DNA from: a virus
Taxonomy: Duplodnaviria; Heunggongvirae; Uroviricota; Caudoviricetes
DNA: 64,000 nt
Reading direction: 5' to 3' (one strand)
Virus record (IMG/VR): IMGVR_UViG_3300010429_001737
Part shown: one piece after another, positions 1,716 to 38,423 of the stretch
How positions within the stretch are numbered: position 1 is the stretch's first letter
Layout of the letters: every line of letters starts with the position of its first letter
Made by a program: the position numbers and the translations under genes
The notes under the pieces: generated by a model
What the model saw: the letters and a program-made list of their open reading frames with translations, nothing else
Database searches by the model: none
What the model was told of the DNA's origin: nothing

Positions 1716-1945
1716 AAAACACTAAAGTTGAAATAAACGGAAAAGATGTAACAGAAGCAAAATGGTATGAAAAGTTGTTAATAGCATTAGCTATACCTTT
1801 TGTTATATTTTTCTTTCTAGCAATAGTTTTCTTAATATTAGGCATTGTTGTCGTTGTTATGGCTTTCTTAATAATTTTAGCATTTATTTTAATTCCAATT
1901 GCAATTATAGCAGCTCTATTGGGAGGTAAACGTGAAAAACATTAA
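1712..1945 (+). CDS. small membrane protein with two hydrophobic helices
   Basis: ATGA overlap with the preceding gene. Long hydrophobic core IALAIPFVIFFFLAIVFLILGIVVVVMAFLIILAFILIPIAIIAALLGG. Start chosen at the coupled ATG (1712) instead of the track start (1694). Confidence 0.45.
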   Translation: MKNTKVEINGKDVTEAKWYEKLLIALAIPFVIFFFLAIVFLILGIVVVVMAFLIILAFILIPIAIIAALLGGKREKH

Positions 1946-2558: not shown

Positions 2559-2559
2559 C

Positions 2560-5050: not shown

Positions 5051-5257
5051 ATGGACATCGACGTTATAAAAAGAAACATTGGAAAGCATTGTAAAATTAT
5101 TTTAAAAAATAATTATGAATACACAGCAGTGATACCAGACTTCAATGGTACTTCGTTTGAAATAAAGGATAAGTTTAATAAAACCACTATCATTGAATGT
5201 TCTTTCATTGCGTTTATACAAGTGCAAGATGAAAATCAGGAGGATTATAAACAATGA
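5051..5257 (+). CDS. hypothetical protein (68 aa)
   Basis: ORF coupled to the primase gene by an ATGA overlap. Confidence 0.4.
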   Translation: MDIDVIKRNIGKHCKIILKNNYEYTAVIPDFNGTSFEIKDKFNKTTIIECSFIAFIQVQDENQEDYKQ

Positions 5258-13656: not shown

Positions 13657-16600
13657 ATGGTTAAAAAACGTAGCTTATTATCACTAGTATTCTTATTTGT
13701 GCTTTCGTTAGTATTATTAGCTACAACGATATATTCTGACGATATTTCTATTGACAAAACGCCTAGAGAAATAAAATTTGATTATAATTCAATCACATAT
13801 AAAAATCCTGATAATACATATACATCGTCAATATATTTTGATGCAATAAATCTTGACAAAATTGTTAATGTTACAAATAAAGGTGATGATATAAACATTA
13901 AATGGAAGAATTATGAGGTTGATATTATATTAAACGTTAAAGAAAAAAATAAGGAAAAGATTAAAATTGGTGATTTAAAGAATTCAAATCTTGAGTATGT
14001 GAAAACGATAAAGGCTAAGGGCGATGAATATGAATTCTTTTGGTTGTTAAATGATACATCGAAGAAAAGTTTTGATTTAGAATATGTAACAATAGAAGTT
14101 GTAAATAAAACTCCAATGACTATAATAGCTGAAAATACTCAGATAATAATGGGAGATGGGTTATATATTGATTTAAACGATTTAGTCGATTCTAATTATA
14201 CGCTTTCAAAACTGAATGAGAAAGAGATTAAGGTTGAGTCTAATGCAATACTTGGTTCTACATTTGATACAGATTCAATATTATTAGACCCGACTGTTAG
14301 AATAAATGTGTCGATGGATAACTATATTAGGGGTGATACCGAGCAATTTAAATCATATAATTATGGAGCTGCAACTTCTGTTTCGATTAATTATCCTGGA
14401 ACACTAAGAACTTTAATGTATTTCCCGCTAACATCGATACCTGCTAATGCTTCTATTTCTGAAGCTTTATTATACTTAAGAGCTATTAACGGGCCAACAA
14501 CATCTGCTAATATTTCCACATACCCATTACTAAAATCTTGGAACGAAGGGACTTCTTCTGCCGGCGCTAATTCAGCATTTATAAATGGGTCTACTTGGAT
14601 GGAGAGATGGTATGGTGATAATAAAAATGATGGTTGTAGTGGAAGTACTGACCCGGACTGGTGTACAAACGGAACTGGTGTTTCTGACTATAATGCTTCG
14701 TTGCAAGTTAATAATGTTATTAGGGCAAATGCAGGAGGAACATGGGTAAATTTGTCGATGCTTACATATGTTAATAAATCAGTTCATGGAGAAATGGAAT
14801 GGTATGGGATTGTCTTTTGGACAAATACTTCTGCATCATCAGGATATCAGTTTGCTTCAAGACAATATACAACTGTAACGACATATAGGCCATATGTTAA
14901 TATTACTTATAGTTTACCAAGTCCAATAACTAATTTAATTTTTCCAGTTAATAATACTAATACATCTAATGGATTATTTAATTTTACATGTAATGCGTCG
15001 ATAGATTCTTCTTTACCAGGAACCAATATTACTAAGTTAGTTATTTTTTATTCTAATGATTCAGCCGGGGTAAATTGGAAAGGAAATATGACGTTTAATG
15101 AAACGAGTGGTATAACTGCTCCGAACAAAACAATTCAACAGAACTGGAGTACTACTTTAACGACAAATGGAGTATATTATTGGGGTTGCGCCGTGAATGT
15201 TTCGTATGGCGGCACAGATTCTAGTGGTCTTGTTCAACCAACAGCTCCGCTAAGATTCATCTTTGATAATATAGGTCCAAATGTAACATATCAAGCTCCA
15301 ACACCAGATGGTGGATATGTGTCGAGCGTTGTAATTAATGTTTCAGTTAATGATAGCTTGAATGCTATAGATACTTGTATATTACAATGGAATTCGACAA
15401 CAGCATTAACAAATTACACAATGACAAAGTCGACGGGATATTGTAATTATACAATGTCTGTTACAACAGGAACATATTATTTTAAAGTTTATGCTAATGA
15501 TTCACTTGGTAATTTAGGAAACGCAAGTCTAAGAAATTTTACGTTTGATAATACACCGCCTAGTATTAACGTTACTTATCCATTAAGTCGTGTTTACATG
15601 GATTTATATAGTTATTCTCTTGGATTAAATGTGACAGCATCTGATGTTGGTTCAAGTTTGCAGACATTTAAGTATTCTTTAAATGGAGCGGCTAATACAA
15701 CATTTACTCCTAATATAACATTAACAACATTAGTTCCTGGGTTAAATAACTTAACTGTCTATGTTAACGATTCAGCTGGAAATATTAATTCATCCTCTGT
15801 TAATTTTACTTTACGTTTTACTCCTAAGATAAATAATACAATAATTGGTAACAGTTCTACAAATTATTCACGATACAATTTAACAAACGGTTTAGTTGGA
15901 TGGTGGAAGTTTGATGAGATAACAAATAATATTGCTTATGATACAAGTTTATATAGAAATAATGCTACGTTATTTCAGAGTATGCAAAATTTGTTAGTTA
16001 ACGGTGATTTTGAAAGTGGAACATGGGCAAATGCCGGCGACTGTTGTTGTGCTTCTTGTTCATGTGTTGCCGGGTCAAATTGTTCTGCAGGCGGAGGTGG
16101 CAGTAATTGTACTTGTGCAAACGGCGGTACTTGTTATTATTTAGCTAATGTCGCGACAGATAAAATCAATGGTGATTATTCACTTAATCTTACTGGAAAT
16201 AAATCATGTGCCTGTAATAATAAAGCTATGAGTAGTTTTACAATTAATAAAACTTATACATTAAGTTTTTGGTATAAAGATGTTTCTGGTCCAGATAGTC
16301 CAAGATATTGTATGTGGATTTCGGGGAGAAATGTATGCGACCCTGCAGAGACGATTTCTGTGTCAGATAACAATTGGCATTATTATCAGAAATCGTTTAA
16401 AATTTTAGATGGCACTACTGCTGCAGCTTTGTATTTATATGGCGGTAATGGTGCAACAACAGAATCTACTAATTTGTATGATGATGTTAGAATTGTTGAA
16501 GGTCCTGGTTGGGACATTAATGGCAAAATTGGAAATGCATTATTTGTTGCTGTAAATAATGCAACAATACCACATATACCTGCGTATAATTTTACAGGTG

Positions 16601-19600
16601 GTTTTTCAATGTCATATTGGGTTAAATTTAATATGGATATGACCTCTTCAAATCCATCAGTTGCTCAAAGATTAGTTAATAAGAATAACCAATGGATTAA
16701 TTACATTGGCACAGATTCCCGTAACTTAAGATTTTATTTGAATAATGGTACAACATGGGAAGATATGTCTTTATGGTCAAGTAAAACAAGTTGGAATAAG
16801 GGCCAATGGTATTTAGTAACATATACAGTTAGTGCAAGAACAAATCCAACAATAACTCTTTATATTGATGGTTCACAAGATAGTACAACATCAAAAACAG
16901 GAACTTGGCAAACATCAAGAGGTAATATTACAATAGGGTATGCATCTGAATTTACCACAGGTGAATTAAATGGTACAATTGATGAATTAAGGTTTTATAA
17001 TTATTCGTTGACAGCAACACAAGTTAGAGATTTATACCAAGTTACAAATCCAACTTTTCAAGAGTCTTCAAATACAACCATTACAGTAACAATAATAGAT
17101 GAAGATTCACCGGCATCTAGTTTATACTACCAATGGTTTGTCGGTCCAGTTTCTGTATTATCTGGTTTAGCTCAGAGCGTATTTAATTATGTTTTCACTC
17201 AACCGAGTACTAATGTTTATTTGATAATAAACGATTCCAATAATTATCAAGTTTTTCAGAATTGGACAATAAATACAACTTACGATAATCCAACAATATC
17301 TTATGTTTTACCAACACCAAGTGATAGTAGTGTACAAACTGGCACAACTGTTACAATAAATGTTTCAGCAAATGATACATCAGGTATTGATAAATGTATA
17401 TTACAATGGAATTCAACTAGTTCGATAAACAATTATACGATGACCCGGAGTGGAATATATTGCAATTACACAGTTTCAATTGCTACACCCGGTTATTACT
17501 ACTTTAAGGTTTATGCTAATGATACACTAGGAAACTGGTTTAATGAATCGTTAAGAACTATTTTAAAAAATAGTCCTCCTGTACAACCAACTGTTACTAT
17601 TATCCCTGCTACTGCGTATAAAAATTCAACATTAAATTGTACAGCTAATACAACAGATGTGGACGGACACACAATATCATATTTTTATCAATTTCTAACA
17701 ACTAATGGTACTATTGTGCAAGATTATGGATATACTGCACCAACAGAATATTGTTATCAAGAAACAGCAAATATTTCGACAGCATGTGGTGGATTAGACA
17801 CTGGAAAATATTGGTATACTACAGACACCACAACTAATTATAATTATATTAATTATTCTAAGCCGTCTTTTGCTTCAAACAATAGCCTTTGGCATGTTAA
17901 ATATTCAAGAACGGCTAATGTTACAGTTAACTATACAATTCCATCAAGTTGTTGGGAACAAAGCACTTTAACAATGTATTTCTATCTGTCCGGAACATCG
18001 GGGTCTGCATCTAATATGCAATTTGGTTGTAAGAATGCAACGGGACTTGTTGCTATAGAAGGACCTTTTTCGTCAACGACTATTACTCGTACAACAACCG
18101 GTAGTCAGAGCGAATTATATGATGGCAATTGGGATAATGCGATAAGTTATTATAGTAATGTATGGTATCGGAACGCCGTTACAGCTGGGGGTGGCGTACC
18201 ACACGGAGTCTTTGAAGAAGCAATGTATTGGGCAAGAGAAGGAAGTTCTAATCTCTTTGATTGTAATGCCAGTTCACTGTGTGTCGCGGGTGAAAATATT
18301 ACATGTAATGTTAAAGCATATGATGGTTATGAAAATAGTACTGTAAATAATGCAACAAGACAGATTTCAGCATATGGAGCAACAACATCAACGTATGTCA
18401 TCGACCAAGCGTTAAACACTAATGTTGGTATAAATAGACGAGGTTCATATGGAAGAAGTAACTCTAATGCTTTAACTCTTATTATTAACATAAACAGGAA
18501 ATTACAAGATTTAACACAGTTTGTCGATTATTTTATTGTTTCTGTAACCATTGAGAACTCAGAAAATATGTTTAGAAGATTGAGTCAATCTATAAATATT
18601 AATGTTTTAACGAGTAGAATGTTAAACTTACAGAAAATTGTATCACAATCATTCTCGATTGATAACTTTGTTAATAAATTAAGAAGTGTTTTCAGTATGA
18701 CAACTCAATCAATTGCTCTTACAGAGAATATCGATTCAATCTTATCAGGTAAAAGGTTTACTACGCAGAATATTAATGTCGTGGATGATGTTGGTATAAA
18801 ATCAAATTTTAAGAGAAGTAATTTTTTATCAATGACAATAAACAATTTTGCTAATCGACTATTAAAATTATTTAGAATTGAAACACAAAGTATTTTATTA
18901 TATGAAAACGAATCAGATATTTTCTCTGGAAAAAGATTAGTTAATCAAAGTATTAATATTACAGATTCGACTTTCGACGTTTATTCTGGAAAAAGAATGA
19001 CATTTACTCAATTATCGGTTACAGCTTTGTCATCAGAATTTTCAAAATTCTTTAGAGTTTCTGATGATGAGGTTTCATTCTTTGATGATGTTACGTATAA
19101 TTTATTAAGGAGGAGGTTTGTGTATCAAAATTTGTCGTTTTTGGATACAACCGGTCGAGAGTATTTCGGAATTAGAAATATTGACCAAATTATCGTCTTT
19201 TCGTTGTCTTCATATAAGCCGTCGAGTCTTTACAATTCCGTGTCTTTAATGATAGGAGTGTCTGAATCGATTTATGAAAAAACAGCTATGAAAAGAGTTC
19301 TTGAGGATTTATTGGAATTCATAGACTCTATTAATAGAAAATTGTTTGGCAGTCGAGTTATAAACGATGTGATTAATGTTAATGAAGATATGTCAAGAAG
19401 AACACTATTATTAAGGTTACTTACTAATGGTATTTCAGTTGGAGATAGTGTTAATATTAGATTATTCGGAAGTCGGGTTATTAGTCAGGAAGTAAATATT
19501 AATGATGACATTTTTAGACAAAGTATAGTTTCAAAAGATATTACCGAACGGGTTAATATTTCTATCGTTAATAACAGAACATATTTAGGAAATAGAATAA

Positions 19601-21159
19601 CTATTGACTTTTTCTCAATAGACGATTTAATAAGATTGCGATTCATGGGTATCAGATATTTAAATCAAGATATAAATATATTCGCAATTAAGTTAACAGG
19701 AGGTTCGTCTATATTTCAGAGTATTATTGAATTACTTGAATTTAATGATTATGTTTCAAGAACAGCGATGTTGTCAAGAGTCTCACAAATTTCTTTGTTG
19801 TTTAACGATATTACTAATCGTATAGCATATATGTTTTTAGGACAGACTGTCACGATAGATTTTTCTGATTCTGTTGTTAGACAGGGGGACGTTCATGTTT
19901 TAATGAGTGACAACATTGAATTTGATGATTTTCTTTCACGAAGTCTAAATTTAATTAGAAATAGTTATAATGGGATTTATATAAATAATATTGTTAATCG
20001 TATAACTTACTTATTTGTCGATAACGGATTGGGCATAAATTTTTATGATAGCATCGAAAGACTCATTACAAGAAATGTCTTTGTTTCCCAAGATATAACA
20101 TTTTATGATAGTGTTGCAAGATTAAATGCATTTGTTCGAAATTTGTACCAAATCTTAGTCTTTAACGAAAATATCCCGGGGATTGATGTTCTATATCAAT
20201 TTTATCTTGAAGTGCGACAAGATATCTTTTTTACAGCTAACGCACAGACAATAAGTGATATTTCAAAAGAGTTTTATGATATAATTACGTTAAATAATGA
20301 TGTTGTCAGATTTGCTTTCGTTTCAAGAGGGGCTAGTGATTCAGTAGAAATCTTTGATAATATTGATACTATGTTAGACATATTTAGAAAACCAAATGAG
20401 ATTGTTTCTTTTAGTATTATTACGAACAGACTTTCAAGTATGACACTACATATTAATATCATTCTTGATATAAATGAGCTTAGTGATAGAATAGCTGAAA
20501 TATATCGTATAGTTTCCGTACCTTTTAATATCTTTGACTATAGAATTCGTACTTTTTTTGGGTTATCAAGTTTAAACGATTCATTTATTATTACAAGTGA
20601 AAACGGCAGGACATATTTCGGCAATAGGATAGTCGACGAAACATTTGACGTTGATATAATGACTTTGCGTATTGCAACTTTGTCAAGATTGATTGTTGAT
20701 AGTATTACAATCGTCACCGCAACAACTGTTACTGCGGTTTATGTTGTGTCTGAGTTTTTTGTAACAATTGTTCAACAAATAACTATTAATGATATTGTAT
20801 CTCGAGCGACAAATTTATATGTTATATTCATTGATGTTATTTCTGTTATTATATCTGTCGTGTCAGGAGGCGGTGGTATAATTGGGCCCGGAGGAGGGGG
20901 CGGCGGATTAGAGGTTTTAAAGAACATACCCGAAAAAATAATAGAAATAATTTCTAGTATTACCTTTTTCACTAGAGGCAACACAATGTTAGTTTTGGCT
21001 CTCTTGAGCGTAATGACTTTCATTTTGGTTCTTTCGTATTATAAATACGAGAAGAGAACCAAAAATAAGAAATATAGAGCGATTGTTATTATAATAATGG
21101 GGCTGTTAGTGATATCTATCGTCTTATGTTTAATATATTTGCTATACTATGTCACATGA
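13657..21159 (+). CDS. giant surface protein (2500 aa): signal peptide, Ig-like (DxAGN-type) domains, LamG/ConA-like domain, Cys-rich segment, about 40 degenerate 19-20 aa repeats, poly-Gly linker, two C-terminal TM helices
   Basis: Signal peptide MVKKRSLLSLVFLFVLSLVLLA. Repeated units of the form ...NYT.S.D...C...VYANDSLGN.... LamG hallmarks LVGWWKFDE ... DELRFYNYSLTATQVRDLY. GGGGIIGPGGGGGG is followed by hydrophobic helices. Extremely dense in NxS/T. Paralogous to the 38424 gene. Confidence 0.8.
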   Translation: MVKKRSLLSLVFLFVLSLVLLATTIYSDDISIDKTPREIKFDYNSITYKNPDNTYTSSIYFDAINLDKIVNVTNKGDDINIKWKNYEVDIILNVKEKNKEKIKIGDLKNSNLEYVKTIKAKGDEYEFFWLLNDTSKKSFDLEYVTIEVVNKTPMTIIAENTQIIMGDGLYIDLNDLVDSNYTLSKLNEKEIKVESNAILGSTFDTDSILLDPTVRINVSMDNYIRGDTEQFKSYNYGAATSVSINYPGTLRTLMYFPLTSIPANASISEALLYLRAINGPTTSANISTYPLLKSWNEGTSSAGANSAFINGSTWMERWYGDNKNDGCSGSTDPDWCTNGTGVSDYNASLQVNNVIRANAGGTWVNLSMLTYVNKSVHGEMEWYGIVFWTNTSASSGYQFASRQYTTVTTYRPYVNITYSLPSPITNLIFPVNNTNTSNGLFNFTCNASIDSSLPGTNITKLVIFYSNDSAGVNWKGNMTFNETSGITAPNKTIQQNWSTTLTTNGVYYWGCAVNVSYGGTDSSGLVQPTAPLRFIFDNIGPNVTYQAPTPDGGYVSSVVINVSVNDSLNAIDTCILQWNSTTALTNYTMTKSTGYCNYTMSVTTGTYYFKVYANDSLGNLGNASLRNFTFDNTPPSINVTYPLSRVYMDLYSYSLGLNVTASDVGSSLQTFKYSLNGAANTTFTPNITLTTLVPGLNNLTVYVNDSAGNINSSSVNFTLRFTPKINNTIIGNSSTNYSRYNLTNGLVGWWKFDEITNNIAYDTSLYRNNATLFQSMQNLLVNGDFESGTWANAGDCCCASCSCVAGSNCSAGGGGSNCTCANGGTCYYLANVATDKINGDYSLNLTGNKSCACNNKAMSSFTINKTYTLSFWYKDVSGPDSPRYCMWISGRNVCDPAETISVSDNNWHYYQKSFKILDGTTAAALYLYGGNGATTESTNLYDDVRIVEGPGWDINGKIGNALFVAVNNATIPHIPAYNFTGGFSMSYWVKFNMDMTSSNPSVAQRLVNKNNQWINYIGTDSRNLRFYLNNGTTWEDMSLWSSKTSWNKGQWYLVTYTVSARTNPTITLYIDGSQDSTTSKTGTWQTSRGNITIGYASEFTTGELNGTIDELRFYNYSLTATQVRDLYQVTNPTFQESSNTTITVTIIDEDSPASSLYYQWFVGPVSVLSGLAQSVFNYVFTQPSTNVYLIINDSNNYQVFQNWTINTTYDNPTISYVLPTPSDSSVQTGTTVTINVSANDTSGIDKCILQWNSTSSINNYTMTRSGIYCNYTVSIATPGYYYFKVYANDTLGNWFNESLRTILKNSPPVQPTVTIIPATAYKNSTLNCTANTTDVDGHTISYFYQFLTTNGTIVQDYGYTAPTEYCYQETANISTACGGLDTGKYWYTTDTTTNYNYINYSKPSFASNNSLWHVKYSRTANVTVNYTIPSSCWEQSTLTMYFYLSGTSGSASNMQFGCKNATGLVAIEGPFSSTTITRTTTGSQSELYDGNWDNAISYYSNVWYRNAVTAGGGVPHGVFEEAMYWAREGSSNLFDCNASSLCVAGENITCNVKAYDGYENSTVNNATRQISAYGATTSTYVIDQALNTNVGINRRGSYGRSNSNALTLIININRKLQDLTQFVDYFIVSVTIENSENMFRRLSQSININVLTSRMLNLQKIVSQSFSIDNFVNKLRSVFSMTTQSIALTENIDSILSGKRFTTQNINVVDDVGIKSNFKRSNFLSMTINNFANRLLKLFRIETQSILLYENESDIFSGKRLVNQSINITDSTFDVYSGKRMTFTQLSVTALSSEFSKFFRVSDDEVSFFDDVTYNLLRRRFVYQNLSFLDTTGREYFGIRNIDQIIVFSLSSYKPSSLYNSVSLMIGVSESIYEKTAMKRVLEDLLEFIDSINRKLFGSRVINDVINVNEDMSRRTLLLRLLTNGISVGDSVNIRLFGSRVISQEVNINDDIFRQSIVSKDITERVNISIVNNRTYLGNRITIDFFSIDDLIRLRFMGIRYLNQDINIFAIKLTGGSSIFQSIIELLEFNDYVSRTAMLSRVSQISLLFNDITNRIAYMFLGQTVTIDFSDSVVRQGDVHVLMSDNIEFDDFLSRSLNLIRNSYNGIYINNIVNRITYLFVDNGLGINFYDSIERLITRNVFVSQDITFYDSVARLNAFVRNLYQILVFNENIPGIDVLYQFYLEVRQDIFFTANAQTISDISKEFYDIITLNNDVVRFAFVSRGASDSVEIFDNIDTMLDIFRKPNEIVSFSIITNRLSSMTLHINIILDINELSDRIAEIYRIVSVPFNIFDYRIRTFFGLSSLNDSFIITSENGRTYFGNRIVDETFDVDIMTLRIATLSRLIVDSITIVTATTVTAVYVVSEFFVTIVQQITINDIVSRATNLYVIFIDVISVIISVVSGGGGIIGPGGGGGGLEVLKNIPEKIIEIISSITFFTRGNTMLVLALLSVMTFILVLSYYKYEKRTKNKKYRAIVIIIMGLLVISIVLCLIYLLYYVT
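18400..20800 (+). repeat. degenerate array of about 19-20 aa repeats (around 40 units) in the C-terminal third of the 13657 gene
   Basis: Recurring units of the form F.R...Q.I.I.D.....R, for example FRRLSQSININVLTSRMLN / LQKIVSQSFSIDNFVNKLR / SGKRLVNQSINITDSTFDVY. This segment is depleted in NxS/T compared with the rest of the protein. Confidence 0.45.
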
Positions 21160-21203: not shown

Positions 21204-24200
21204 ATGAGAATAAGATACATTTTACTAGTTTTAATTATTTCTATTAACTTATGTTATTTTGTTAATGCGGCTGCAGTTCAGGATATTTTACACCTTTCTA
21301 TTCAAGTAGAAAATGAAAGTCATAGTGGATTGCTTGCTGGGACGTATAATTTTACTTTTAATATTACTTCTGACTCTGGATGTAATACTGTCGTGTATTC
21401 TAACAAAACTCAACTTACTACTAATGGTTTGGCTAAGGTATCATATTTTCTAGAAAACGTTACTTTAGATTTTCAGGACCAGTATTGGCTTTGTGTATAT
21501 AGAGATGGAGTTTTAACAAATGTTTCAAGAGTTGCGAGGGCTCCATATTCTTTTATGGCTAAAAATGTTACTTGGTCGGGCGTAATTGGAAAACCTAGTA
21601 ATTTGTCTCAATTTACAAATGATTTAGTGTTTGACCACAATGTTGATTTAACAGGTTTACAGGGGGGCTCGGCTGGTGAATATTATCATTTAACATCTGT
21701 TGAGGCACAAGCTGTCGTCGATAATTGGGATTTATGGGTCACAACTTCGACGAGTTCTCTTATTAATTATTATCTTAAAACAGATGTCTATAACAAAACA
21801 GAGGTGTATAACTCTACTTCAATTGATAATTTATTAACTAGTTATTTAACATCCACTTCGATTATTTCAAGTGACTATGTTAATAAAACATCCGGGACAT
21901 TTTTTGAAGGTTGGGACTTAACATCTATTATCGACGACATCAAGACATTAGTAGATGACCACACTACAGATATTGGTACTTTAGATACCAATAAATTAGA
22001 TATTACGGACCAAAGATATAATGATACTAATCTAATTAATAATGTAAACAGTTCAGTTTATTCAGATTTATATAATCATACTACTAATTATTCAAATCCT
22101 CATAATGTAACTGCCATACAAGTTGGTGCTGTCGATTTAACAAGTGACCAAGATATAAATGGGACTAAGAATTTTTTAAATATTCCTCTATTACCCGATT
22201 TAAACCCAACTCTTGATAATGAAGCTGTAAGAAAAGCTTACGTTGATGCTTTAGTCTTCGGGTTAATTTGGCAAGAAGAAATTAGCGGGAGAAACACAAC
22301 AGAACCTGTTTCACCAACATCAGGGGAGCGTTGGAGAGTATTGACCGGGGCAACTGGCAACTGGACCGGTTATGACGATAGATTAGCTGAATATAATGGC
22401 ACAACATGGGAATTTGATGGTGAACCCCAGGATGCATGGGCAGTATTAGATACTTCAGATAATACTCAGTGGAGATATAATGCATATGGAAGCGGTTGGA
22501 TTAAGATTGGGGCATCTTCTATTTATTCAACTGGTAATGGGTTGCAGTTAACAATTAATACATTTTCAATAAGATTAAGAACTGGAAATAGTGGGATGAA
22601 TTTTTCTGATTTAGGACTAGGAATAGATTTTGATTCTAATGTTTTACAGATAGTTGGTAATAAGTTAGGGATTTTACCGGGGGGTATTAACAACACTCAT
22701 CTTTCAGGTAATATTTCAAATGATAAATTGAATCAACTAACACAAAGTAATTTAGTTAATTATTCCGCTATAAATATGTCAGGTTCTGTTATATGTGACA
22801 TTGATGATGTAGATTGTATTACAACTCCTCCTGGTGACTGGATGGTTGCTACTTGGTATAATGGTTCAGTCGTCTGGGTTATTCCTAATTCAAGTGTAAG
22901 TAATCAAAGTCTTGGGTTCTTTGAATTAACTTTACATTCTCATCCTGCGTCGTCAGTTACATGGACTATTCCTACTACTGTTAGCGAATTTTATAACAAT
23001 GTAAAATATGCAAGAAGACAAGTAGATTTGTCATCTGCTTTAAATTATAGAATTTTTGTAAATCAATTAATAAATGGAAATGGAAATACAAGAGTTTGGG
23101 TTCAATATTCATTAAACAACGGAACGACTTGGGTAGATATGAATAATAGTGCAACATCAGGAGTGTTAAATATTTCTAAAATAAGTACTGCTAATTATAT
23201 TTTATATAACGGGTGGACGCCTGTGCCGCTAGGGGCAAAAAGAGATGTAACAGTAAGACTAGTTGGTACTGGAGGGTTTAATAATGCAACAACGGCTCCT
23301 ACTTTTAGACAAGTTGCAATTCAATTTCAAGTTCCGTTAGCTGGAGATTATAATATTACTTATAACACGATTTCAGGCGGTGGTGGAAGTGGAGTTTCGG
23401 CAATGATTAACTTAACAGACGTTAAGAACCAAAGTGGAAATTTTTATACAAATAAAAATATCCCAATTGCTAACGGAAGTACTTATGTTGTTAGACAATT
23501 AAATAGTTCTGATTTAGGTGATATCAATAATGTTGGAAAGAATGATGGCATGTGTTTGGTCTTTGATAATTCAACACAGAAGTTAATCTATTCTTATGTT
23601 TGCGGGGTTAATGGCTCTTCAACTGTTAATTTTTCTGTAACAGGATTTGACTTTGTTTCTTATCCCGGTGCACAATGGTCAAGTCAGCCTCTGGCTGAAA
23701 CAGAAGTATATGGCTCATCCGGTGTTTATATAAGACAGAAGAGAGATTTCACTAATGCAATTCAGTATAGAATTCATCTTTCTCTAAGTGTTTATGGTGC
23801 ACCTAACAGTACTATTTATTTGCAGTATAACAACTCAAATACAGGATACAAATGGTATAATTTGTCGACTACAACAGAAGCTAATCAGATTTCAGTTAAT
23901 GCTACAGGAACGACGTCACTTAGAACATCTGCATGGTATGATATACCAGTTGGGGCTAGAGCTGATACCAATATAAGAGTTGTGGGCAGAGGTGGGTTTG
24001 GGAATGCAACAAGTTCGCCATACTTTAGACAATTGAGAGTTGAATATAGAATACTCGGGCTTAATACATCAGTTATCTCGGGAAGTTCATATAATGAGAC
24101 TTATGACTCATGGTCATATAATCAAACGCTTGCGGCAAATACAACTATTTATAATGTTTATAACGATGTTTGGCGTTCAACATATAACGAAACTTATGCT

Positions 24201-24851
24201 ATATGGACATATAACCAAACTCTAGCTGGCAATAACATGTTCTTAAATCTCTCAGGAACTAATGCCAATCAGGATATTAATATTGGTTCTTACGCTATTT
24301 CAGCAAGTGGTAATAGTAAGTTTGGTGATTCTTTACGATATGCGACGTTTTCAGATTTAGATTTAACAGCATATGGTTATGGTCAATTTAAAACATTTAA
24401 AAGTGTTTCAGATTCCGCATTAGGAAATTTGTCGATATTCATGAATGGTCTTATCGTAGTTGGGGGAACTGAGAACGCCACAACTAATGAGGGTATGCCC
24501 TTTCTAACATTATTTGATGCATCATATGTTAATAGTGTTGATTTTATCTATAATGCGACTGAAAACTTCTTAACAATTACATCACCAATAGTCGTTGAAG
24601 GATATATTAATACATCAACTGGTAATGACATCTGCACTGGTGATGGAAAATGCTTAAGTCAATTAAATAATACTATTAATTATAGTTTATACGTTCCATA
24701 CGAAGGAGCTAATCAAAATGTTAATCTCTCTGGTTATAATGTAACAGCCTCAAACGTTAAACTTGTTGGAAACGGGACAATATCGAGGGAAGACGTTAAT
24801 ACGACAATGTTTATTTCGGATTCAGGAAATTTAATTATTCAATTTGCATAA
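21204..24851 (+). CDS. tail-fibre-like / receptor-binding protein (about 1215 aa)
   Basis: Start moved to MRIRYILLVLIISINLCYFVNAAAV, which is a signal peptide lying directly after the conserved leader TTTTGTTATAAAAAAT. NLSQFTNDLVFDHNVDLTGLQGGSAGEYYHLT and NYSNPHNVTAIQVGAV resemble conserved phage tail-fibre/collar motifs. Y/W-rich repeats YNETY..WSYNQTLA. Confidence 0.65.
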   Translation: MRIRYILLVLIISINLCYFVNAAAVQDILHLSIQVENESHSGLLAGTYNFTFNITSDSGCNTVVYSNKTQLTTNGLAKVSYFLENVTLDFQDQYWLCVYRDGVLTNVSRVARAPYSFMAKNVTWSGVIGKPSNLSQFTNDLVFDHNVDLTGLQGGSAGEYYHLTSVEAQAVVDNWDLWVTTSTSSLINYYLKTDVYNKTEVYNSTSIDNLLTSYLTSTSIISSDYVNKTSGTFFEGWDLTSIIDDIKTLVDDHTTDIGTLDTNKLDITDQRYNDTNLINNVNSSVYSDLYNHTTNYSNPHNVTAIQVGAVDLTSDQDINGTKNFLNIPLLPDLNPTLDNEAVRKAYVDALVFGLIWQEEISGRNTTEPVSPTSGERWRVLTGATGNWTGYDDRLAEYNGTTWEFDGEPQDAWAVLDTSDNTQWRYNAYGSGWIKIGASSIYSTGNGLQLTINTFSIRLRTGNSGMNFSDLGLGIDFDSNVLQIVGNKLGILPGGINNTHLSGNISNDKLNQLTQSNLVNYSAINMSGSVICDIDDVDCITTPPGDWMVATWYNGSVVWVIPNSSVSNQSLGFFELTLHSHPASSVTWTIPTTVSEFYNNVKYARRQVDLSSALNYRIFVNQLINGNGNTRVWVQYSLNNGTTWVDMNNSATSGVLNISKISTANYILYNGWTPVPLGAKRDVTVRLVGTGGFNNATTAPTFRQVAIQFQVPLAGDYNITYNTISGGGGSGVSAMINLTDVKNQSGNFYTNKNIPIANGSTYVVRQLNSSDLGDINNVGKNDGMCLVFDNSTQKLIYSYVCGVNGSSTVNFSVTGFDFVSYPGAQWSSQPLAETEVYGSSGVYIRQKRDFTNAIQYRIHLSLSVYGAPNSTIYLQYNNSNTGYKWYNLSTTTEANQISVNATGTTSLRTSAWYDIPVGARADTNIRVVGRGGFGNATSSPYFRQLRVEYRILGLNTSVISGSSYNETYDSWSYNQTLAANTTIYNVYNDVWRSTYNETYAIWTYNQTLAGNNMFLNLSGTNANQDINIGSYAISASGNSKFGDSLRYATFSDLDLTAYGYGQFKTFKSVSDSALGNLSIFMNGLIVVGGTENATTNEGMPFLTLFDASYVNSVDFIYNATENFLTITSPIVVEGYINTSTGNDICTGDGKCLSQLNNTINYSLYVPYEGANQNVNLSGYNVTASNVKLVGNGTISREDVNTTMFISDSGNLIIQFA

Positions 24852-24888
24852 TAGAATAATATATAAATAGTAAAGAATATAAGATAAT

Positions 24889-27723
24889 ATGGATGACATA
24901 AAAAAGAACAAAAAAACAAAACTCATTGTAATAAGTATGTTAGTAATATTATTAATAGGTATAAGTGTTTCTGTTTTTTATGTTTTTAATACTCAGAAAG
25001 ATACACAAGAACGGTTGTTGACAAATAACAGCGTTGTTGTTCAGAGTGTGATGAACAGTCAGACGACAAATGTTAATAAATCAGACGTTAAGAATGTTAT
25101 TAATACGATGAAAGTTCGAATACCAGACCCTCATATAAAAAACCCATTAACAAAGGTTAACCCTCGAACTTCATTTTTAAATAATACTGGACAAGAACAA
25201 GCTTATATAGACCATGAAGGTAATATTGGATTATTGCATAATTTAACTTCGACAAGTGGTTGGTTAAAAGGTTTCATTGAAGGTAAATATAATTCAACTT
25301 TTGGTGATAATATTTCTTATATGGAAATTAAACAACTGATGGGCGGGGATGGGGCATATTATACAGCAATTCATTCAAAATCTAATTCAACATTACCAGG
25401 CTTCGAAAATTTAACATCTATTCTTGGAAATTTTTTAATTTATGAAAATACTCCACAATTAATGTTCTGGGATTCTAGTAACCCGTCTGAACTTGGTAGA
25501 ATTATATATTCAAATAGCAATCTATTTACTATCGATAAAAGTTTACTTATCAATAATAATATTACTGTCTTGGGTAATAGTGGATTATTCGGGGCATCAG
25601 AACATACTATTTATTTAGATAATTATTTTTTTAACGGGTCATTAGTTTCTACACATGATGTATACACCAATGATTATTTTGAAATTGTGCCGGGTGTTGC
25701 TTCCGTGAATAAACTTAATGCTTTTGGCACAGAAATTTATGAAGAATCATCTAACCCGTATGATTTTATTTACGGTTTATCAAGTTCGGCAACTGTGCAT
25801 GGCGATTTAACTAATGATAATGTATATGGCATAATCGGCGAGGGTGTAGTCAGCGCGGGAGCAAACGTCTCAAATCTACATGGAATTGTGAGTTCAGTAA
25901 CTGTCGATGGCAATGCGACTAATGCTTATTCCCTAATAGTACAACGAAATATTGATGGCGGTGGAACAGTTGACAATAATTTATATGGGATATATCTCGA
26001 AGATTTTAGACCATCTGACTTAAGTGGAACCGTTAATCAAGGATATGCAATTTATTCAGCAGGTGGTGATGTCTATTTTGATGATACAGATGTGTTTACA
26101 ATATTAAATAGTTCTAATTCAGCTAACTTATGTTTAAACGGTGTTTGTTATTCTTCTCTGGCGAGTTCATCTTACAATGAAACTTATGCTCTTTATTCAT
26201 ATAATCAAACTACAGCTACATATAATCAATATGGACAGTGGTGGTATAATATGAGTGATGGTTCATATAACGAAACTTATGCTCTTTATTCATATAATCA
26301 AACTACTGGATATATACCATACACAGGCGCAAATCAGAACATAAATTTTGGAAATAATAATTTAACAGTTGGTTCCTCAAACACTTTATTTGTTAATGTT
26401 GATACAAATCAAGTTGGGATTGGGACAAACGTTATTAATGACACTTATATAATGAGAATCACAGGTAGCGTATTAATTGAAGGAAATTTAACTCTTTATG
26501 GCAATTCTTCACAGTTAAGTTTTCAAAATTTGTCAACTAATGGTTCTATAATTCCAGGGACTGATGATGCTTTTAATTTAGGTGATGTTGCAGCTCGTTG
26601 GAAGAATGGATATTTTAGTACTGATGTTTTTATAGCCGGAAACTCTGTTAAACAATGGATGTATAACCAAACATACTCTGGTTCGACTTACAATGCAACT
26701 TATGCAACATGGTTGCCAAATTATACAGCCTTTTCAAAATATTGGTATAATATGACTTATTCAGGAAGTACATACAATGCAACTTATGCTCTTTATTCAT
26801 ATAATCAAACAACACCAGCAATAACTTCTCTTAATTCTACATATGGAAAATGGTGGTATAATCAAACTATAGCTGCTAATACTTCAATAGTTAGTACATA
26901 TGGGAAGTGGTGGTATAATCAAACTATTGCTGCAAATACTTCAATTTATGGAGCTTATGGGAAGTGGTGGTATAATCAAACTATAGCTGCTAATACAAGT
27001 ATATTTAACGCTTACGGACGATGGTGGTATAATCAAACATCTGCAAATCAATATTGGAATGTAAGCGGTTCTAATATATTCCCACAAAGTTTGGGATATA
27101 ATGTTGGAATTGGGACAACAACACCTTCCTCAAAATTATCTGTCGTTGGAAATATAACTTCTTCAGATAGTATAAATGCATCTAAATTATGCATTGGTAG
27201 TGATTGTAGAACATCTTGGGCATCTGCCGGTGGAGCAAATAATACTTATATTAATCTTCCTGTTCAGTCAGCTAAGATTGGTCACATTGCTAATTCGGCA
27301 AGAATCAACGGCGGGACAAATAGATGGAGACTTGTGTATCAAAACGATACTGGACGAGCTGCTGAATGGCAATTTCAAATGCCAGATTCTTATAGTGCAT
27401 CTAGCACACTTAAGGCAGATATTATCTGGATAGAAAATACTAACACAGCAGGTAATGTTGTTTGGAATGTTAGTGTTATGGCATTAACAGCAGGAGATTC
27501 TGCTTCTATCGAAACCGATTCTTTTGATACTGCTAATACAGCAACAACTGCTGCTTCCGGAACAGCAAATTATCCAACTTTAACTACAATTACTTTAACA
27601 AATAAAGATAGTGTTGCAGCAAGTGATTTGGTAATCGTTAAACTTGTGAGAGATGGAAGTAGTGCAAGTGATACATTAAATGCTAATGCTGGAGTTATTA
27701 CATTCAGATTATATTGGAGTTAA
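24889..27723 (+). CDS. tail-fibre-like protein (944 aa) with 19-aa tandem repeats
   Basis: N-terminal TM. FNLGDVAARWKNGYFS resembles the tail-fibre ...G-x-x-x-x-RW-x-x-x-Y... motif. YNETYALYSYNQTT occurs three times. A 57-bp tandem repeat encodes YGKWWYNQTIAANTSI four times. Shares repeat cassettes with the preceding gene. Confidence 0.6.
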   Translation: MDDIKKNKKTKLIVISMLVILLIGISVSVFYVFNTQKDTQERLLTNNSVVVQSVMNSQTTNVNKSDVKNVINTMKVRIPDPHIKNPLTKVNPRTSFLNNTGQEQAYIDHEGNIGLLHNLTSTSGWLKGFIEGKYNSTFGDNISYMEIKQLMGGDGAYYTAIHSKSNSTLPGFENLTSILGNFLIYENTPQLMFWDSSNPSELGRIIYSNSNLFTIDKSLLINNNITVLGNSGLFGASEHTIYLDNYFFNGSLVSTHDVYTNDYFEIVPGVASVNKLNAFGTEIYEESSNPYDFIYGLSSSATVHGDLTNDNVYGIIGEGVVSAGANVSNLHGIVSSVTVDGNATNAYSLIVQRNIDGGGTVDNNLYGIYLEDFRPSDLSGTVNQGYAIYSAGGDVYFDDTDVFTILNSSNSANLCLNGVCYSSLASSSYNETYALYSYNQTTATYNQYGQWWYNMSDGSYNETYALYSYNQTTGYIPYTGANQNINFGNNNLTVGSSNTLFVNVDTNQVGIGTNVINDTYIMRITGSVLIEGNLTLYGNSSQLSFQNLSTNGSIIPGTDDAFNLGDVAARWKNGYFSTDVFIAGNSVKQWMYNQTYSGSTYNATYATWLPNYTAFSKYWYNMTYSGSTYNATYALYSYNQTTPAITSLNSTYGKWWYNQTIAANTSIVSTYGKWWYNQTIAANTSIYGAYGKWWYNQTIAANTSIFNAYGRWWYNQTSANQYWNVSGSNIFPQSLGYNVGIGTTTPSSKLSVVGNITSSDSINASKLCIGSDCRTSWASAGGANNTYINLPVQSAKIGHIANSARINGGTNRWRLVYQNDTGRAAEWQFQMPDSYSASSTLKADIIWIENTNTAGNVVWNVSVMALTAGDSASIETDSFDTANTATTAASGTANYPTLTTITLTNKDSVAASDLVIVKLVRDGSSASDTLNANAGVITFRLYWS
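26818..27045 (+). repeat. 57-bp (19-aa) tandem repeat, about 4 copies, inside the 24889 gene
   Basis: TATGG(A/G)AA(A/G)TGGTGGTATAATCAAACTAT(A/T)GCTGC(T/A)AATAC(T/A)...; it encodes YGKWWYNQTIAANTSI four times. Confidence 0.65.
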
Positions 27724-38376: not shown

Positions 38377-38392
38377 TGATATTATGTGACAA

Positions 38393-38423
38393 ATTTTATA
38401 TACTGGGTTTTGTTATAAAGAAT
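38393..38423 (+). promoter_or_regulatory. leader/promoter of the second giant gene (paralogous to 21167..21203)
   Basis: See the 21167 entry. Confidence 0.5.

What the first reader, a model, noticed from the sequence alone, without database searches (positions are those of the whole stretch)
21204..27723. Two tail-fibre-like genes sharing swappable Y/W-rich repeat cassettes, including a 57-bp tandem repeat
The 21204 gene contains NLSQFTNDLVFDHNVDLTGLQGG...EYYHLT and NPHNVTAIQVGAV, which resemble conserved N-terminal and collar motifs of caudoviral tail fibres. The 24889 gene contains FNLGDVAARWKNGYFS, like the G....RW...Y motif. Both genes carry YNETYA[LI][YW][ST]YNQT[LT] cassettes, and 24889 adds four 57-bp copies of YGKWWYNQTIAANTSI. 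Shared short cassettes between adjacent fibre genes are a signature of host-range modules that evolve by recombination. This is also the best evidence that the element is a tailed virus, even though no capsid, portal or terminase gene falls in this window.
Basis: partly seen in the sequence, partly recalled or inferred. Interest (0 to 1): 0.55.

Follow-up and report, generated by a model that had tools for sequence, protein, structure and literature searches.

The report
Exported mosaic fibre adhesins, DPANN element
Two neighbouring genes on a ~109-kb circular element of tiny symbiotic archaea (Pacearchaeota) encode exported, sugar-site-rich fibre proteins that join phage tail-fibre modules to archaeal surface-protein modules, so they look like surface adhesins and not like parts of a phage tail.

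Summary
Both ORFs, all quoted motifs, the shared Y/W-rich NxT cassettes and the 57-bp array are present; the array has three exact 16-aa cores plus one degenerate copy.

Gene 1 (21204-24851) does contain a phage-fibre core: DUF2793, and relatives that fall in tail-fibre and virion PHROGs. That core lies behind a Sec signal peptide and an N-terminal domain typical of secreted DPANN proteins.

Gene 2 (24889-27723) has an N-terminal membrane anchor. Its 520-aa core is 44% identical to chromosomal, syntenic surface proteins of Pacearchaeota. Its family profile matches the Bdellovibrio "mosaic adhesive trimer" fibres. It matches none of 50,697 phage records.

N-glycosylation sequons are about 2-fold enriched in both genes. 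The cassettes occur across the whole DPANN family, and DNA shows no recent exchange between the two genes.

The two genes lie in a run of 31 consecutive ORFs of >=100 aa (11944-63081) that all carry N-terminal export or anchor segments. No capsid, portal or terminase was found in ~97.5 of ~108.6 kb. The tailed-virus inference is therefore unsupported.

Best reading: exported, probably trimeric, N-glycosylated fibre adhesins on a virus-like or plasmid-like element of a DPANN archaeon.

The parts
21204..24851 (+). Gene 1: 1215-aa exported mosaic fibre protein. The ORF could begin at 21126, but the signal peptide begins at Met 21204.
   Evidence: The orthologue P0009 starts directly with a signal peptide.
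21204..21275 (+). Gene 1 Sec-type signal peptide, MRIRYILLVLIISINLCYFVNAAA.
   Evidence: Hydrophobic segment at residues 1-26. 92 of 121 relatives ranked from P0061 on, most of them matching this N-terminal domain, also have an N-terminal hydrophobic leader.
21276..21626 (+). Gene 1 N-terminal beta-rich domain (residues 25-141), of a type found in secreted DPANN proteins.
   Evidence: 45-59% identical to the N-termini (about residues 25-140) of more than 100 proteins. One of them, P0113, lies on a 601-kb Nanoarchaeia contig. This is the only part of the AF2 model with pLDDT 54-73, and it is all-beta.
21600..21695 (+). Motif NLSQF...GLQGG..EYYHLT.
   Evidence: The same GLQGG..YYHLT motif follows DUF2793 in P0010 and P0011 and occurs twice in P0012.
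22023..23375 (+). Gene 1 phage-fibre-like core (residues ~274-724). It holds the NPHNVT motif (22095-22133), DUF2793 (22278-22484) and a sigma-1-like repeat stretch.
   Evidence: Pfam DUF2793, E 9.8e-8, 32.2 bits against a cut-off of 27. phrog_15388 and phrog_5363, plus weak phrog_25620 'tail collar fiber'. Relatives at 30-37% identity, E 1e-30 to 3e-66, fall in tail-fibre and virion PHROGs and BppL_N. Their profile hits 9efk orf22, 9nx3 decoration protein and reovirus sigma-1. tblastn hits Halorubrum tailed virus ORF25 and Paracoccus and Rhodobacter phages.
22971..23333 (+). Gene 1 jelly-roll / CBM-like domain, copy 1 (residues ~590-710).
   Evidence: 29% identical to copy 2, E 7e-22. Weak Pfam Reelin_subrepeat-B hit. 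Weak Foldseek hits to reelin repeats and CBMs, from a low-confidence model.
23688..24053 (+). Gene 1 jelly-roll / CBM-like domain, copy 2 (residues ~829-950).
24087..24221 (+). Gene 1 Y/W-rich NxT cassettes: SYNETYDSWSYNQT and TYNETYAIWTYNQT.
24889..27723 (+). Gene 2: 944-aa membrane-anchored mosaic fibre protein.
24907..24996 (+). Gene 2 N-terminal signal-anchor / TM helix (residues 7-36).
   Evidence: The AF2 helix at residues 8-45 is the only segment with pLDDT above 60. P0005 has the same type of N-terminus.
25633..27195 (+). Gene 2 core (residues 249-769), homologous to chromosomal Pacearchaeota surface proteins.
   Evidence: 44% identity over 528 alignment columns to P0002, E 2e-108; 43% to P0003. 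Relatives in GTDB genomes are DPANN, with one weak exception.
26170..26304 (+). Gene 2 cassettes: two copies of SYNETYALYSYNQT, 93% identical in DNA with only synonymous differences.
26572..26619 (+). Motif FNLGDVAARWKNGYFS.
   Evidence: It is conserved as FDLG...WR.GYF in P0002, P0003, P0005 and P0007.
26770..26811 (+). Gene 2 third cassette, TYNATYALYSYNQT.
26842..27038 (+). 57-bp tandem array: three copies of YGKWWYNQTIAANTSI plus three variable residues, then one degenerate copy.
   Evidence: TRF. Across the 57-bp unit each pair of the three exact copies differs at 5-7 synonymous and 4-6 non-synonymous positions; the 16-aa core peptide is identical in all three and the last three residues vary. 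P0002 has two such units at the same place.
27097..27153 (+). MAT-like fibre unit YNVGIGTTTPSSKLSVVGN. A second GIGT lies at 26416-26427.
   Evidence: The family profile hits Bd2133 (8ond, E 3e-11), Bd3182 (8ojn, E 1e-3) and Bd2439 (8ol4, E 0.026) through this unit.
27196..27720 (+). Gene 2 unique C-terminal beta-rich domain (residues 770-944), the candidate tip / binding domain.
   Evidence: Not covered by the alignments to P0002 or P0003. All-beta in the low-confidence AF2 model. No Pfam, PHROG or PDB match.

Best explanation
Both genes encode exported, N-glycosylated, probably trimeric fibre adhesins. Each protein is a mosaic of modules.

Gene 1 has, in order: a cleavable signal peptide; an N-terminal beta domain common in secreted DPANN proteins; a phage side-fibre core (GLQGG..YYHLT, NPHxVT, DUF2793, sigma-1-like repeats); two duplicated jelly-roll (lectin-like) domains; Y/W-NxT cassettes; and a C-terminal domain.

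Gene 2 has, in order: an N-terminal membrane anchor; a beta-rich core shared with chromosomal Pacearchaeota surface proteins; Y/W-NxT cassettes; MAT-like 'VGIGTxxPxxKLxV' units; a 57-bp tandem array; and a private C-terminal tip.

Proposed mechanism. The proteins are translocated by Sec and glycosylated at the many NxS/T sites on the outer face of the membrane. They are then displayed as fibres whose distal lectin-like or tip domains bind surface glycans of a partner cell. The aromatic NxT cassettes act as glycosylated spacer modules. Their number and position change by duplication and indel, which alters fibre length and composition.

The display surface is most likely the cell that carries the element, a Pacearchaeota episymbiont (my estimate ~0.45). 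Alternatively it is the envelope of a non-tailed virion (~0.3).

Shown: the domain composition, the export signals, the sequon enrichment, the homologies, the genomic contexts and the absence of recent exchange between the two genes. Inferred: trimerisation, glycosylation, surface display, glycan binding and the host.
For: Export signals and sequons:
- N-terminal hydrophobic segments in both proteins, and in all 31 ORFs of >=100 aa from 11944 to 63081.
- Sequons 62 observed against 26 expected in gene 1, and 44 against 23 in gene 2, beyond all 2000 shuffles.
- The cytoplasmic replication proteins of the same element are at or below expectation.

Gene 2:
- 44% identity over 528 alignment columns to P0002, E 2e-108.
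- P0002 and P0003 sit in the same chromosomal slot (PheRS alpha and beta, TYW2, XPD-like helicase) in two Pacearchaeota genomes of 0.44-0.76 Mb.
- 10 of the 11 relatives in the GTDB genome scan are in MAGs labelled Pacearchaeota, Woesearchaeota, Nanoarchaeota, Nanoarchaeia or 'archaeon', or in the P0002 genome (deposited as 'Paceibacterota bacterium'); the eleventh is a weak hit in a MAG labelled bacterium.
- The family profile hits the Bdellovibrio MAT fibres Bd2133, Bd3182 and Bd2439. These are surface-displayed, phage-like trimeric adhesins with swapped tips (PMC10769870).

Gene 1:
- DUF2793. Relatives fall in tail-fibre and virion PHROGs and BppL_N. PDB profile hits go to virion fibres.
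- The N-terminal domain is shared with more than 100 secreted, sequon-rich proteins.
- The jelly-roll domain is duplicated, E 7e-22.

Cassettes:
- They occur across the whole family.
- They sit at a different junction in the orthologue P0009.
- The 16-aa core is kept identical in three copies although each pair of 57-bp units differs at 5-7 synonymous positions.

Host link:
- The P0002 contig (coverage 9.9) and the element (coverage 82) are in the same assembly, ERZ795055.
- GC is 28-31% and the tetranucleotide correlation is 0.91-0.95.

Literature: LamG/concanavalin adhesion genes have been reported on CPR and DPANN viruses (PMC11310336).
Against: - No structural confirmation. Both AF2 models failed (mean pLDDT 33.4 and 32.3), so trimeric fibre architecture and the tip folds are inferred from sequence only.
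- The MAT match comes from the family profile, mainly the C-terminal repeats of P0002, P0003, P0006 and P0007. Gene 2 itself has only one clear unit plus one partial unit.
- In phages DUF2793 is an N-terminal virion-attachment domain. Its presence could mean that gene 1 docks onto a particle.
- The element has a virus-like replication set: PolB, ThyA, dUTPase-like, UDG, endonuclease I, PrimPol-helicase. A virion role therefore cannot be dismissed.
- Signal peptides were called with a hydropathy rule, not a trained predictor.
Confidence: 0.65

Rival explanations
1. One reading: the two genes are tail fibres of a tailed (caudoviral) archaeal virus. Their shared cassettes are host-range modules exchanged by recombination between the two neighbours.
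For: - DUF2793 in gene 1. DUF2793 proteins are tail fibres in RcGTA, DMS3 and JBD26. One sits in the tail region of Halorubrum tailed virus DL1, downstream of a 1135-aa FN3 protein.
- Relatives of gene 1 match tail-fibre PHROGs.
- The element has virus-like replication genes and about 8-fold the coverage of the candidate host.
- 11.1 kb of the element were not seen.
Against: - Signal peptide or membrane anchor, and 2-fold sequon enrichment.
- DUF2793 is internal (residues 359-427), not N-terminal.
- All ORFs of >=100 aa from 11944 to 63081 carry an N-terminal hydrophobic segment, so they are predicted exported or membrane proteins.
- No capsid, portal, terminase, tape measure or tube by Pfam or PHROGs in ~97.5 kb.
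- A search of IMG/VR with gene 2 found no relative.
- Gene 2 matches no phage record and is homologous to chromosomal, syntenic cellular genes.
- No DNA signal of exchange between the two genes.
Confidence: 0.1
2. The two proteins are spikes or fibres anchored in the lipid envelope of a non-tailed, membrane-containing archaeal virus (pleomorphic, spindle-shaped or a new morphotype). The ~50-kb block of exported proteins would then be its structural module.
For: - Export signals and TM anchors throughout the block. Several small proteins with 2-4 TM segments (12476, 28999, 51798, 57483, 60506, 61169) resemble, in size and hydropathy only, the capsid proteins of spindle-shaped or pleomorphic viruses (the resemblance is my own knowledge and was not tested).
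- Virus-like replication genes, an integrase and high coverage.
- An uncharacterised 546-aa P-loop ATPase.
- The phage-fibre core in gene 1.
Against: - No known archaeal virus structural family was detected.
- Two exported proteins of 2500 and 3081 aa with LamG domains are typical of DPANN cell surfaces, not of known archaeal virions (PMC11310336).
- The core of gene 2 is a cellular, syntenic gene family.
- A search of IMG/VR with gene 2 found no relative.
Confidence: 0.25
3. The similarity between the two genes is a compositional by-product. In an AT-rich genome, Asn/Tyr/Thr-rich low-complexity sequence would arise anyway, and the repeats would have no function.
For: GC is 31-32%, and Asn makes up 11-11.5% of both proteins.
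Against: - The cassettes are precise, in-frame peptides conserved across proteins that are 30-44% identical.
- The 16-aa core is identical in three copies although each pair of 57-bp units differs at 5-7 synonymous positions.
- Sequon counts exceed all 2000 composition-preserving shuffles.
- Equally Asn-rich neighbours lack the cassettes, for example the 3081-aa protein with 12% Asn.
Confidence: 0.03

Closest known systems
Bdellovibrio bacteriovorus mosaic adhesive trimer (MAT) fibres: Bd2133, Bd3182, Bd2439, Bd1334 (PMC10769870; PDB 8OND, 8OJN, 8OL4)
   Same: - Exported, cell-surface fibres built from phage-tail-fibre-like units, with interchangeable C-terminal tips.
- Used by a small cell that must recognise and attach to other cells.
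- The gene-2 family profile hits Bd2133 (E 3e-11), Bd3182 (E 1e-3) and Bd2439 (E 0.026) through the 'GxGTxxPxxKLxV' units.
- There are several paralogues per genome.
   Different: - The host is archaeal (DPANN), not a deltaproteobacterial predator.
- The proteins are heavily enriched in N-glycosylation sequons and carry Y/W-NxT cassettes that MAT proteins are not described as having.
- Gene 2 itself has only one or two MAT-like units and no S74 chaperone domain.
- The genes lie on an extrachromosomal element.
- Trimer formation and surface location were not tested.
DUF2793 (PF10983) side or tail fibres of siphophages and gene transfer agents: RcGTA Rcc00171, Pseudomonas phages DMS3 gp49 and JBD26 gp59, Halorubrum tailed virus DL1 ORF25
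   Same: - Gene 1 has a DUF2793 domain above Pfam's cut-off.
- It has a variable, lectin-like distal part, as described for DUF2793 proteins.
- tblastn hits exactly these phage genes.
   Different: - In phages the domain is N-terminal and docks the fibre onto the tail, and the gene follows the central-fibre gene.
- Here it is internal, preceded by a signal peptide and ~330 residues.
- The gene follows a 2500-aa exported LamG protein, and no tail genes were found.
Chromosomal surface proteins of Pacearchaeota / Nanoarchaeia (P0002, P0003, P0004, P0113)
   Same: - 44% identity over 528 alignment columns with gene 2.
- Same cassettes, same YGKWWYNQT units, same RW..GYF and VGIGT motifs, signal peptides and sequon density.
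   Different: - They are chromosomal and syntenic next to housekeeping genes.
- They have a different N-terminal domain (DFxALQGNV...) and longer C-terminal VGIGT arrays.
- Gene 2 has an uncleaved-looking anchor and a private C-terminal tip.
- None has been characterised experimentally.
LamG/concanavalin 'cell-adhesion' genes reported on CPR and DPANN viruses (PMC11310336)
   Same: A mobile element of a DPANN archaeon carrying genes for surface adhesion proteins. The neighbours of the two genes are LamG proteins.
   Different: The two genes of this finding have no LamG domain. Tail-fibre/MAT-type fibres and NxT cassettes do not appear in the passages of that paper retrieved for 'LamG', 'concanavalin' and 'adhesion'; the rest of the paper was not read.

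Membership tests
Caudoviral DUF2793-type tail fibre | DUF2793 (PF10983) domain present | tested here: met
   Gene 1, residues 359-427: E 9.8e-8, 32.2 bits against a cut-off of 27. Gene 2 has none.
Caudoviral DUF2793-type tail fibre | DUF2793 at the N-terminus, as the virion-attachment domain of a cytoplasmic protein | tested here: not met
   The domain is internal. It is preceded by a signal peptide and ~330 residues.
Caudoviral DUF2793-type tail fibre | Encoded in a tail module, downstream of the central fibre, with tape measure, tube, portal, capsid and terminase on the same genome | tested here: not met
   No such family by Pfam or PHROGs in the 64-kb window or in 33.6 kb of flanks. The neighbours are exported proteins. 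11.1 kb of the element remain unseen.
Caudoviral DUF2793-type tail fibre | Protein present in tailed virions | not testable with these tools
   Needs particle purification with proteomics or EM.
MAT (mosaic adhesive trimer) fibre superfamily | Sequence similarity to the beta-helix / beta-prism fibre units of solved MAT proteins | tested here: inconclusive
   The family profile A1 hits Bd2133 (E 3e-11), Bd3182 (E 1e-3) and Bd2439 (E 0.026). The matched profile region derives mostly from the homologues. Gene 2 alone finds no PDB chain and has one clear unit, at 27097-27153.
MAT (mosaic adhesive trimer) fibre superfamily | N-terminal export signal and surface display | tested here: inconclusive
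   Hydrophobic N-termini are present. Display itself cannot be tested here.
MAT (mosaic adhesive trimer) fibre superfamily | Variable C-terminal tip domain, or an S74 chaperone | tested here: inconclusive
   Gene 2 residues 770-944 are private and beta-rich. No Peptidase_S74 was detected. Distant relatives P0029-P0031 do carry PF13884.
MAT (mosaic adhesive trimer) fibre superfamily | Intertwined trimer | not tested
   Only monomer AF2 models were run, and both had low confidence (pLDDT 33 and 32).
Pacearchaeota surface-protein family (P0002/P0003 type) | Homology over the central ~500 residues, including cassettes, the RW..GYF motif and the VGIGT motif | tested here: met
   Gene 2 residues 249-769 against P0002 residues 512-963: 44% identity, E 2e-108.
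Pacearchaeota surface-protein family (P0002/P0003 type) | Conserved N-terminal domain (DFxALQGNV...YGKxYY...RQxFQSSVGN) | tested here: not met
   Absent from gene 2. Gene 1's N-terminal domain is not convincingly related to it (hhalign probability 23%).
Archaeal N-glycosylated surface protein | Export signal plus enrichment of NxS/T sequons | tested here: met
Archaeal N-glycosylated surface protein | Glycans actually attached | not testable with these tools
   Needs glycoproteomics.

The most novel reading that the evidence does not exclude
The ~108.6-kb circle is a new kind of DPANN-associated element, either a non-tailed enveloped virus lineage or a 'host-range' plasmid. About half of its coding capacity is an exchangeable arsenal of exported adhesins. 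These include fibres in which phage tail-fibre modules (DUF2793, sigma-1-like repeats, MAT-like units) have been fused to archaeal glycoprotein modules. The element would thereby determine which partner cells the episymbiotic archaeon, or its virion, can attach to.
Probability: 0.3. Interest if true: 0.8.

Novelty: new variant of a known kind. Interest (0 to 1): 0.55.

Why it matters
How DPANN archaea recognise and hold on to their host cells is largely unknown. These genes point to a concrete, testable class of candidates: phage-fibre/MAT-like, N-glycosylated fibres. They occur both in Pacearchaeota chromosomes and on a high-copy mobile element.

If the element delivers adhesins to its carrier cell, then mobile elements could reprogramme the partner range of an episymbiont. 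If the fibres instead sit on a virion envelope, this would be a large, non-tailed virus type of DPANN archaea.

The finding also shows that tail-fibre motifs alone are not safe evidence for a tailed virus.

Tried and rejected
1. AF2 models of both proteins, using the few available homologues as alignment. Mean pLDDT was 33.4 and 32.3, so they are unusable. One Foldseek search with the gene-1 model gave nothing at E <= 0.001, only weak reelin-repeat and CBM hits.
2. Single-sequence PDB searches for both proteins found nothing. Only the profiles gave hits.
3. Walking the contig.
   - The element was not found in the metagenome collection, and a search of IMG/VR with gene 2 found no relative.
   - A chimeric query intended to recover flank proteins failed.
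11.1 kb remain unseen.
4. Looking for capsid, portal or terminase with Pfam and PHROGs in the window and flanks found none. PDB searches of the 546-aa ATPase and of the 321- and 328-aa proteins found nothing significant.
5. Homology between gene 1's N-terminal domain and the P0002-type N-terminal domain has only 23% hhalign probability and was not claimed.
6. Recent gene conversion between the two genes was rejected.
7. Purely compositional origin of the repeats was rejected.
It worked with a 3-sequence alignment.
Full report
**Observation**

The region holds two + strand ORFs: 21126/21204..24851 and 24889..27723.
- NLSQF...GLQGG..EYYHLT at gene-1 residues 133-164.
- NPHNVTAIQVGAV at gene-1 residues 298-310.
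- FNLGDVAARWKNGYFS at gene-2 residues 562-577.

The [ST]YN[EA]TY..[YW][ST]YNQT cassettes start at nt 24087 and 24180 in gene 1, and at 26170, 26263 and 26770 in gene 2.

Tandem Repeats Finder reports a 57-bp array at 26842-27038, with 3.5 copies, 81% matches and score 245. One small correction applies. The array has three copies of the exact 16-residue core YGKWWYNQTIAANTSI, followed by one degenerate copy.

The cassette region is the only similarity between the two proteins (BLASTP E 1e-8). Among the + strand ORFs of >=80 aa scanned, none other than these two reaches two matches to the cassette pattern.

**The repeats are functional peptides**

- The 16-residue core peptide is identical in the three exact copies. 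Across the 57-bp unit each pair differs at 5-7 synonymous and 4-6 non-synonymous positions, and the last three residues of the unit vary (VST, YGA, FNA).
- Each cassette and each unit contains NxT sequons.
- Sequons number 62 in gene 1, against 26.0 +/- 4.4 in residue shuffles (maximum 44 of 2000). They number 44 in gene 2, against 22.7 +/- 4.1 (maximum 36).
- The cytoplasmic replication proteins of the same element are at or below expectation.

**Export signals**

Gene 1 begins, from Met 21204, with a typical signal peptide. Gene 2 begins with a charged stretch followed by a 30-residue hydrophobic helix (the AF2 helix at residues 8-45 agrees).

Every ORF of >=100 aa from 11944 to 63081 has an N-terminal hydrophobic segment: 31 in a row, all on the + strand. 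Many also have a C-terminal TM anchor. Two of them are paralogous LamG proteins of 2500 and 3081 aa.

**Gene 2**

- The word-indexed search found only about a dozen relatives. The best are P0002 and P0003, from Pacearchaeota contigs of 0.44-0.76 Mb.
- Gene-2 residues 249-769 align to P0002 residues 512-963 at 44% identity, E 2e-108.
- Both homologues occupy the same chromosomal slot, next to PheRS alpha and beta, TYW2 and an XPD-like helicase, among other housekeeping genes. They are therefore cellular genes.
- All homologues carry the same cassettes (YNATYALWAYNQT, YGKWWYNQT, long STYNATYE arrays), the FDLG..WR.GYF motif and 'VGIGTxxPxxKLxV' units.
- A scan of GTDB species genomes found 11 loci. 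Ten are in MAGs labelled Pacearchaeota, Woesearchaeota, Nanoarchaeota, Nanoarchaeia or simply 'archaeon', or in the genome that carries P0002, which its record labels 'Candidatus Paceibacterota bacterium'. The eleventh is a weak hit (E 3e-5) in a MAG labelled 'uncultured bacterium'.
- tblastn against 50,697 phage records found nothing.
- A profile of the family hits solved Bdellovibrio fibres: Bd2133 (8OND, E 3e-11), Bd3182 (8OJN, E 1e-3) and Bd2439 (8OL4, E 0.026). These are the 'mosaic adhesive trimer' proteins. They are phage-like, surface-displayed trimeric adhesins with exchanged tips, used to recognise prey (PMC10769870).
- Distant sequence relatives carry Peptidase_S74, and one is named 'tail fiber domain-containing'.
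- Caveat: the PDB match rests mostly on repeats in the homologues. Gene 2 itself has one clear unit (27097-27153), followed by a private beta-rich C-terminal domain.

**Gene 1**

- Pfam finds DUF2793 at residues 359-427, above the gathering cut-off. PHROGs gives two unknown families plus a weak 'tail collar fiber' hit over the NPHNVT motif.
- DUF2793 is the conserved N-terminal domain of side fibres in non-contractile phages and of the RcGTA tail fibre (PMC5026251 and bioRxiv 10.1101/150227).
- An exhaustive HMMER search found 1584 relatives: 390 at E <= 1e-10 and 29 at E <= 1e-30. They fall into two classes.
  - The first class matches residues ~270-720 at 30-37% identity. Of the 38 relatives aligned in A5, most of which are of this class, 19 have DUF2793 and 7 have BppL_N. 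Many match PHROGs annotated as tail fibre, virion structural, head decoration or baseplate. Two-thirds of the 27 best-ranked (P0034-P0060) lack an N-terminal hydrophobic segment and show no sequon enrichment. A profile of the 38 hits PDB 9efk orf22 (E 5e-8), a capsid decoration protein (9nx3) and the reovirus sigma-1 fibre.
  - The second class, more than 100 proteins, matches only gene-1 residues 25-141 at 45-59% identity. The match always lies just behind a leader. These proteins are Asn-rich and sequon-rich. One is on a 601-kb Nanoarchaeia contig.
- Gene 1 is therefore a chimera: a DPANN-type secreted head fused to a phage-fibre core.
- After the core come two duplicated jelly-roll domains (29% identity, E 7e-22; weak reelin-subrepeat and CBM signals), then the cassettes, then a C-terminal domain.
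- tblastn finds the DUF2793 stretch in Halorubrum tailed virus DL1 ORF25, downstream of a 1135-aa FN3 protein, and in Paracoccus and Rhodobacter phages.

**Are the cassettes swapped between the neighbours?**

At DNA level the gene-1 and gene-2 cassettes are 71-83% identical. The longest shared exact word is 20 nt. Controls that keep both protein sequences but resample synonymous codons reach 20 nt in 18 of 200 trials. Recent exchange between the two genes is therefore not shown.

Within gene 2, two cassettes are 93% identical with only synonymous differences, which suggests a more recent duplication.

Modularity is nevertheless real on a longer time scale:
- In P0009, the only close orthologue of gene 1 (42-48% identity), the cassette lies between the NLSQF and GLxGG..YYHL motifs and not near the C-terminus.
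- The equivalent of gene 1's C-terminal part is on the next gene in that contig.
- P0002 has two YxKWWYNQ units where gene 2 has four.

**The element**

- Three independent assemblies give 108,568, 108,636 and 108,654 bp with different end points. The element is therefore circular, or circularly permuted.
- In ERZ795055 its coverage is 82, against 9.9 for the contig carrying P0002. Composition is similar: GC 28-31% and tetranucleotide r 0.91-0.95.
- The window and 33.6 kb of flanks encode PrimPol-helicase with a LAGLIDADG intein, a T7-endonuclease-I-like protein, an SNF2 helicase, a JAB + ThiF pair, UDG, PolB, thymidylate synthase, a dUTPase-like protein, a tyrosine integrase, a transglutaminase-core protein and a 546-aa P-loop ATPase.
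- Pfam and PHROGs detect no capsid, portal, terminase or tail protein.
- A search of IMG/VR with gene 2 found no relative.
- 11.1 kb (window-equivalent ~89.5-100.6 kb) could not be retrieved.
- A distantly related element (L009) shares gene 1, its C-terminal module, and homologues of the 486-aa and 563-aa exported proteins. It carries a serine recombinase.

**Conclusion**

The two genes are best read as exported, N-glycosylated, probably trimeric fibre adhesins of a mosaic family. That family is shared between Pacearchaeota chromosomes and this element. They work like Bdellovibrio MAT fibres and like phage receptor-binding fibres. They fail the tests for membership of a caudoviral tail module.

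Whether they decorate the carrier cell (my preference) or an enveloped virion is unresolved. The statement that they are 'the best evidence that the element is a tailed virus' is not supported.

Structure prediction failed (pLDDT ~33). Fibre architecture, trimerisation, glycosylation and binding therefore remain inferences.

Noticed in passing
window 11944-63081: All 31 ORFs of >=100 aa in this stretch, all on the + strand, carry an N-terminal hydrophobic segment, and many also have a C-terminal TM anchor. This makes a ~50-kb block of exported or membrane proteins. Three of them are 9-11% cysteine (47649, 52078, 55548).
   Followed up: partly
window 13657-21159 and 38376-47621: Two giant exported LamG proteins (2500 and 3081 aa) are paralogous, at 31-45% identity over several hundred residues. 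The 2500-aa protein has a long C-terminal array of ~30-40-aa repeats, a Gly run and four TM segments.
   Followed up: partly
whole element (window plus L004, L006, L015, L018): The window is part of a ~108.6-kb circular, or circularly permuted, element. It was assembled three times with different end points, and its coverage is about 8-fold that of a Pacearchaeota contig in the same sample. A search of IMG/VR with gene 2 found no relative. 11.1 kb were not retrievable.
   Followed up: partly
window 5254-8343: A PrimPol plus AAA_25 helicase replication protein is interrupted by an intein with a LAGLIDADG homing-endonuclease domain.
   Followed up: no
window 1932-3246: Adjacent JAB-deubiquitinase-like and ThiF/E1-like genes, a pair known from ubiquitin-like conjugation and some defence or counter-defence systems.
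   Followed up: no
L015:8359-9999 (window-equivalent ~69.5-71.2 kb, minus strand): A 546-aa protein has Walker A (GRIGSGKST), a Walker-B-like ILIIQEAAEF and a long acidic, K/E-rich tail. It has no Pfam, PHROG or PDB match. It may be a packaging or transfer ATPase.
   Followed up: partly
L018:1-6000 (window-equivalent ~83.5-89.5 kb): A minus-strand arm encodes family B DNA polymerase, thymidylate synthase and a dUTPase-like protein. UDG lies on the other flank (L006:1102-1725), and a tyrosine integrase and a transglutaminase-core protein are on L015.
   Followed up: no
window 54706-55509: A small sequon-rich membrane protein scores exactly at Pfam's RIFIN gathering threshold (32.0 bits, E 1.6e-7). 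This is probably a compositional or TM artefact and not a Plasmodium relative.
   Followed up: no
L009 (Logan SRR22387926 contig, 25.7 kb): A distantly related element shares gene 1 (42% identity), a separate gene matching gene 1's C-terminal module, and homologues of window 29583 and 50110. It carries a serine recombinase.
   Followed up: partly
L010, L011, L021, L024, L027 (records titled 'Candidatus Paceibacterota bacterium'): The genome that carries P0002 is labelled as a bacterium (Paceibacterota). Its gene context (RNase P p30; synteny with a Pacearchaeota MAG) looks archaeal, so the label is probably wrong.
   Followed up: no
window 27680/27725-29005: The gene overlapping the end of gene 2 encodes another signal-peptide LamG protein (Laminin_G_3, E 2.7e-6). 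The adhesin-like cluster therefore continues downstream.
   Followed up: no
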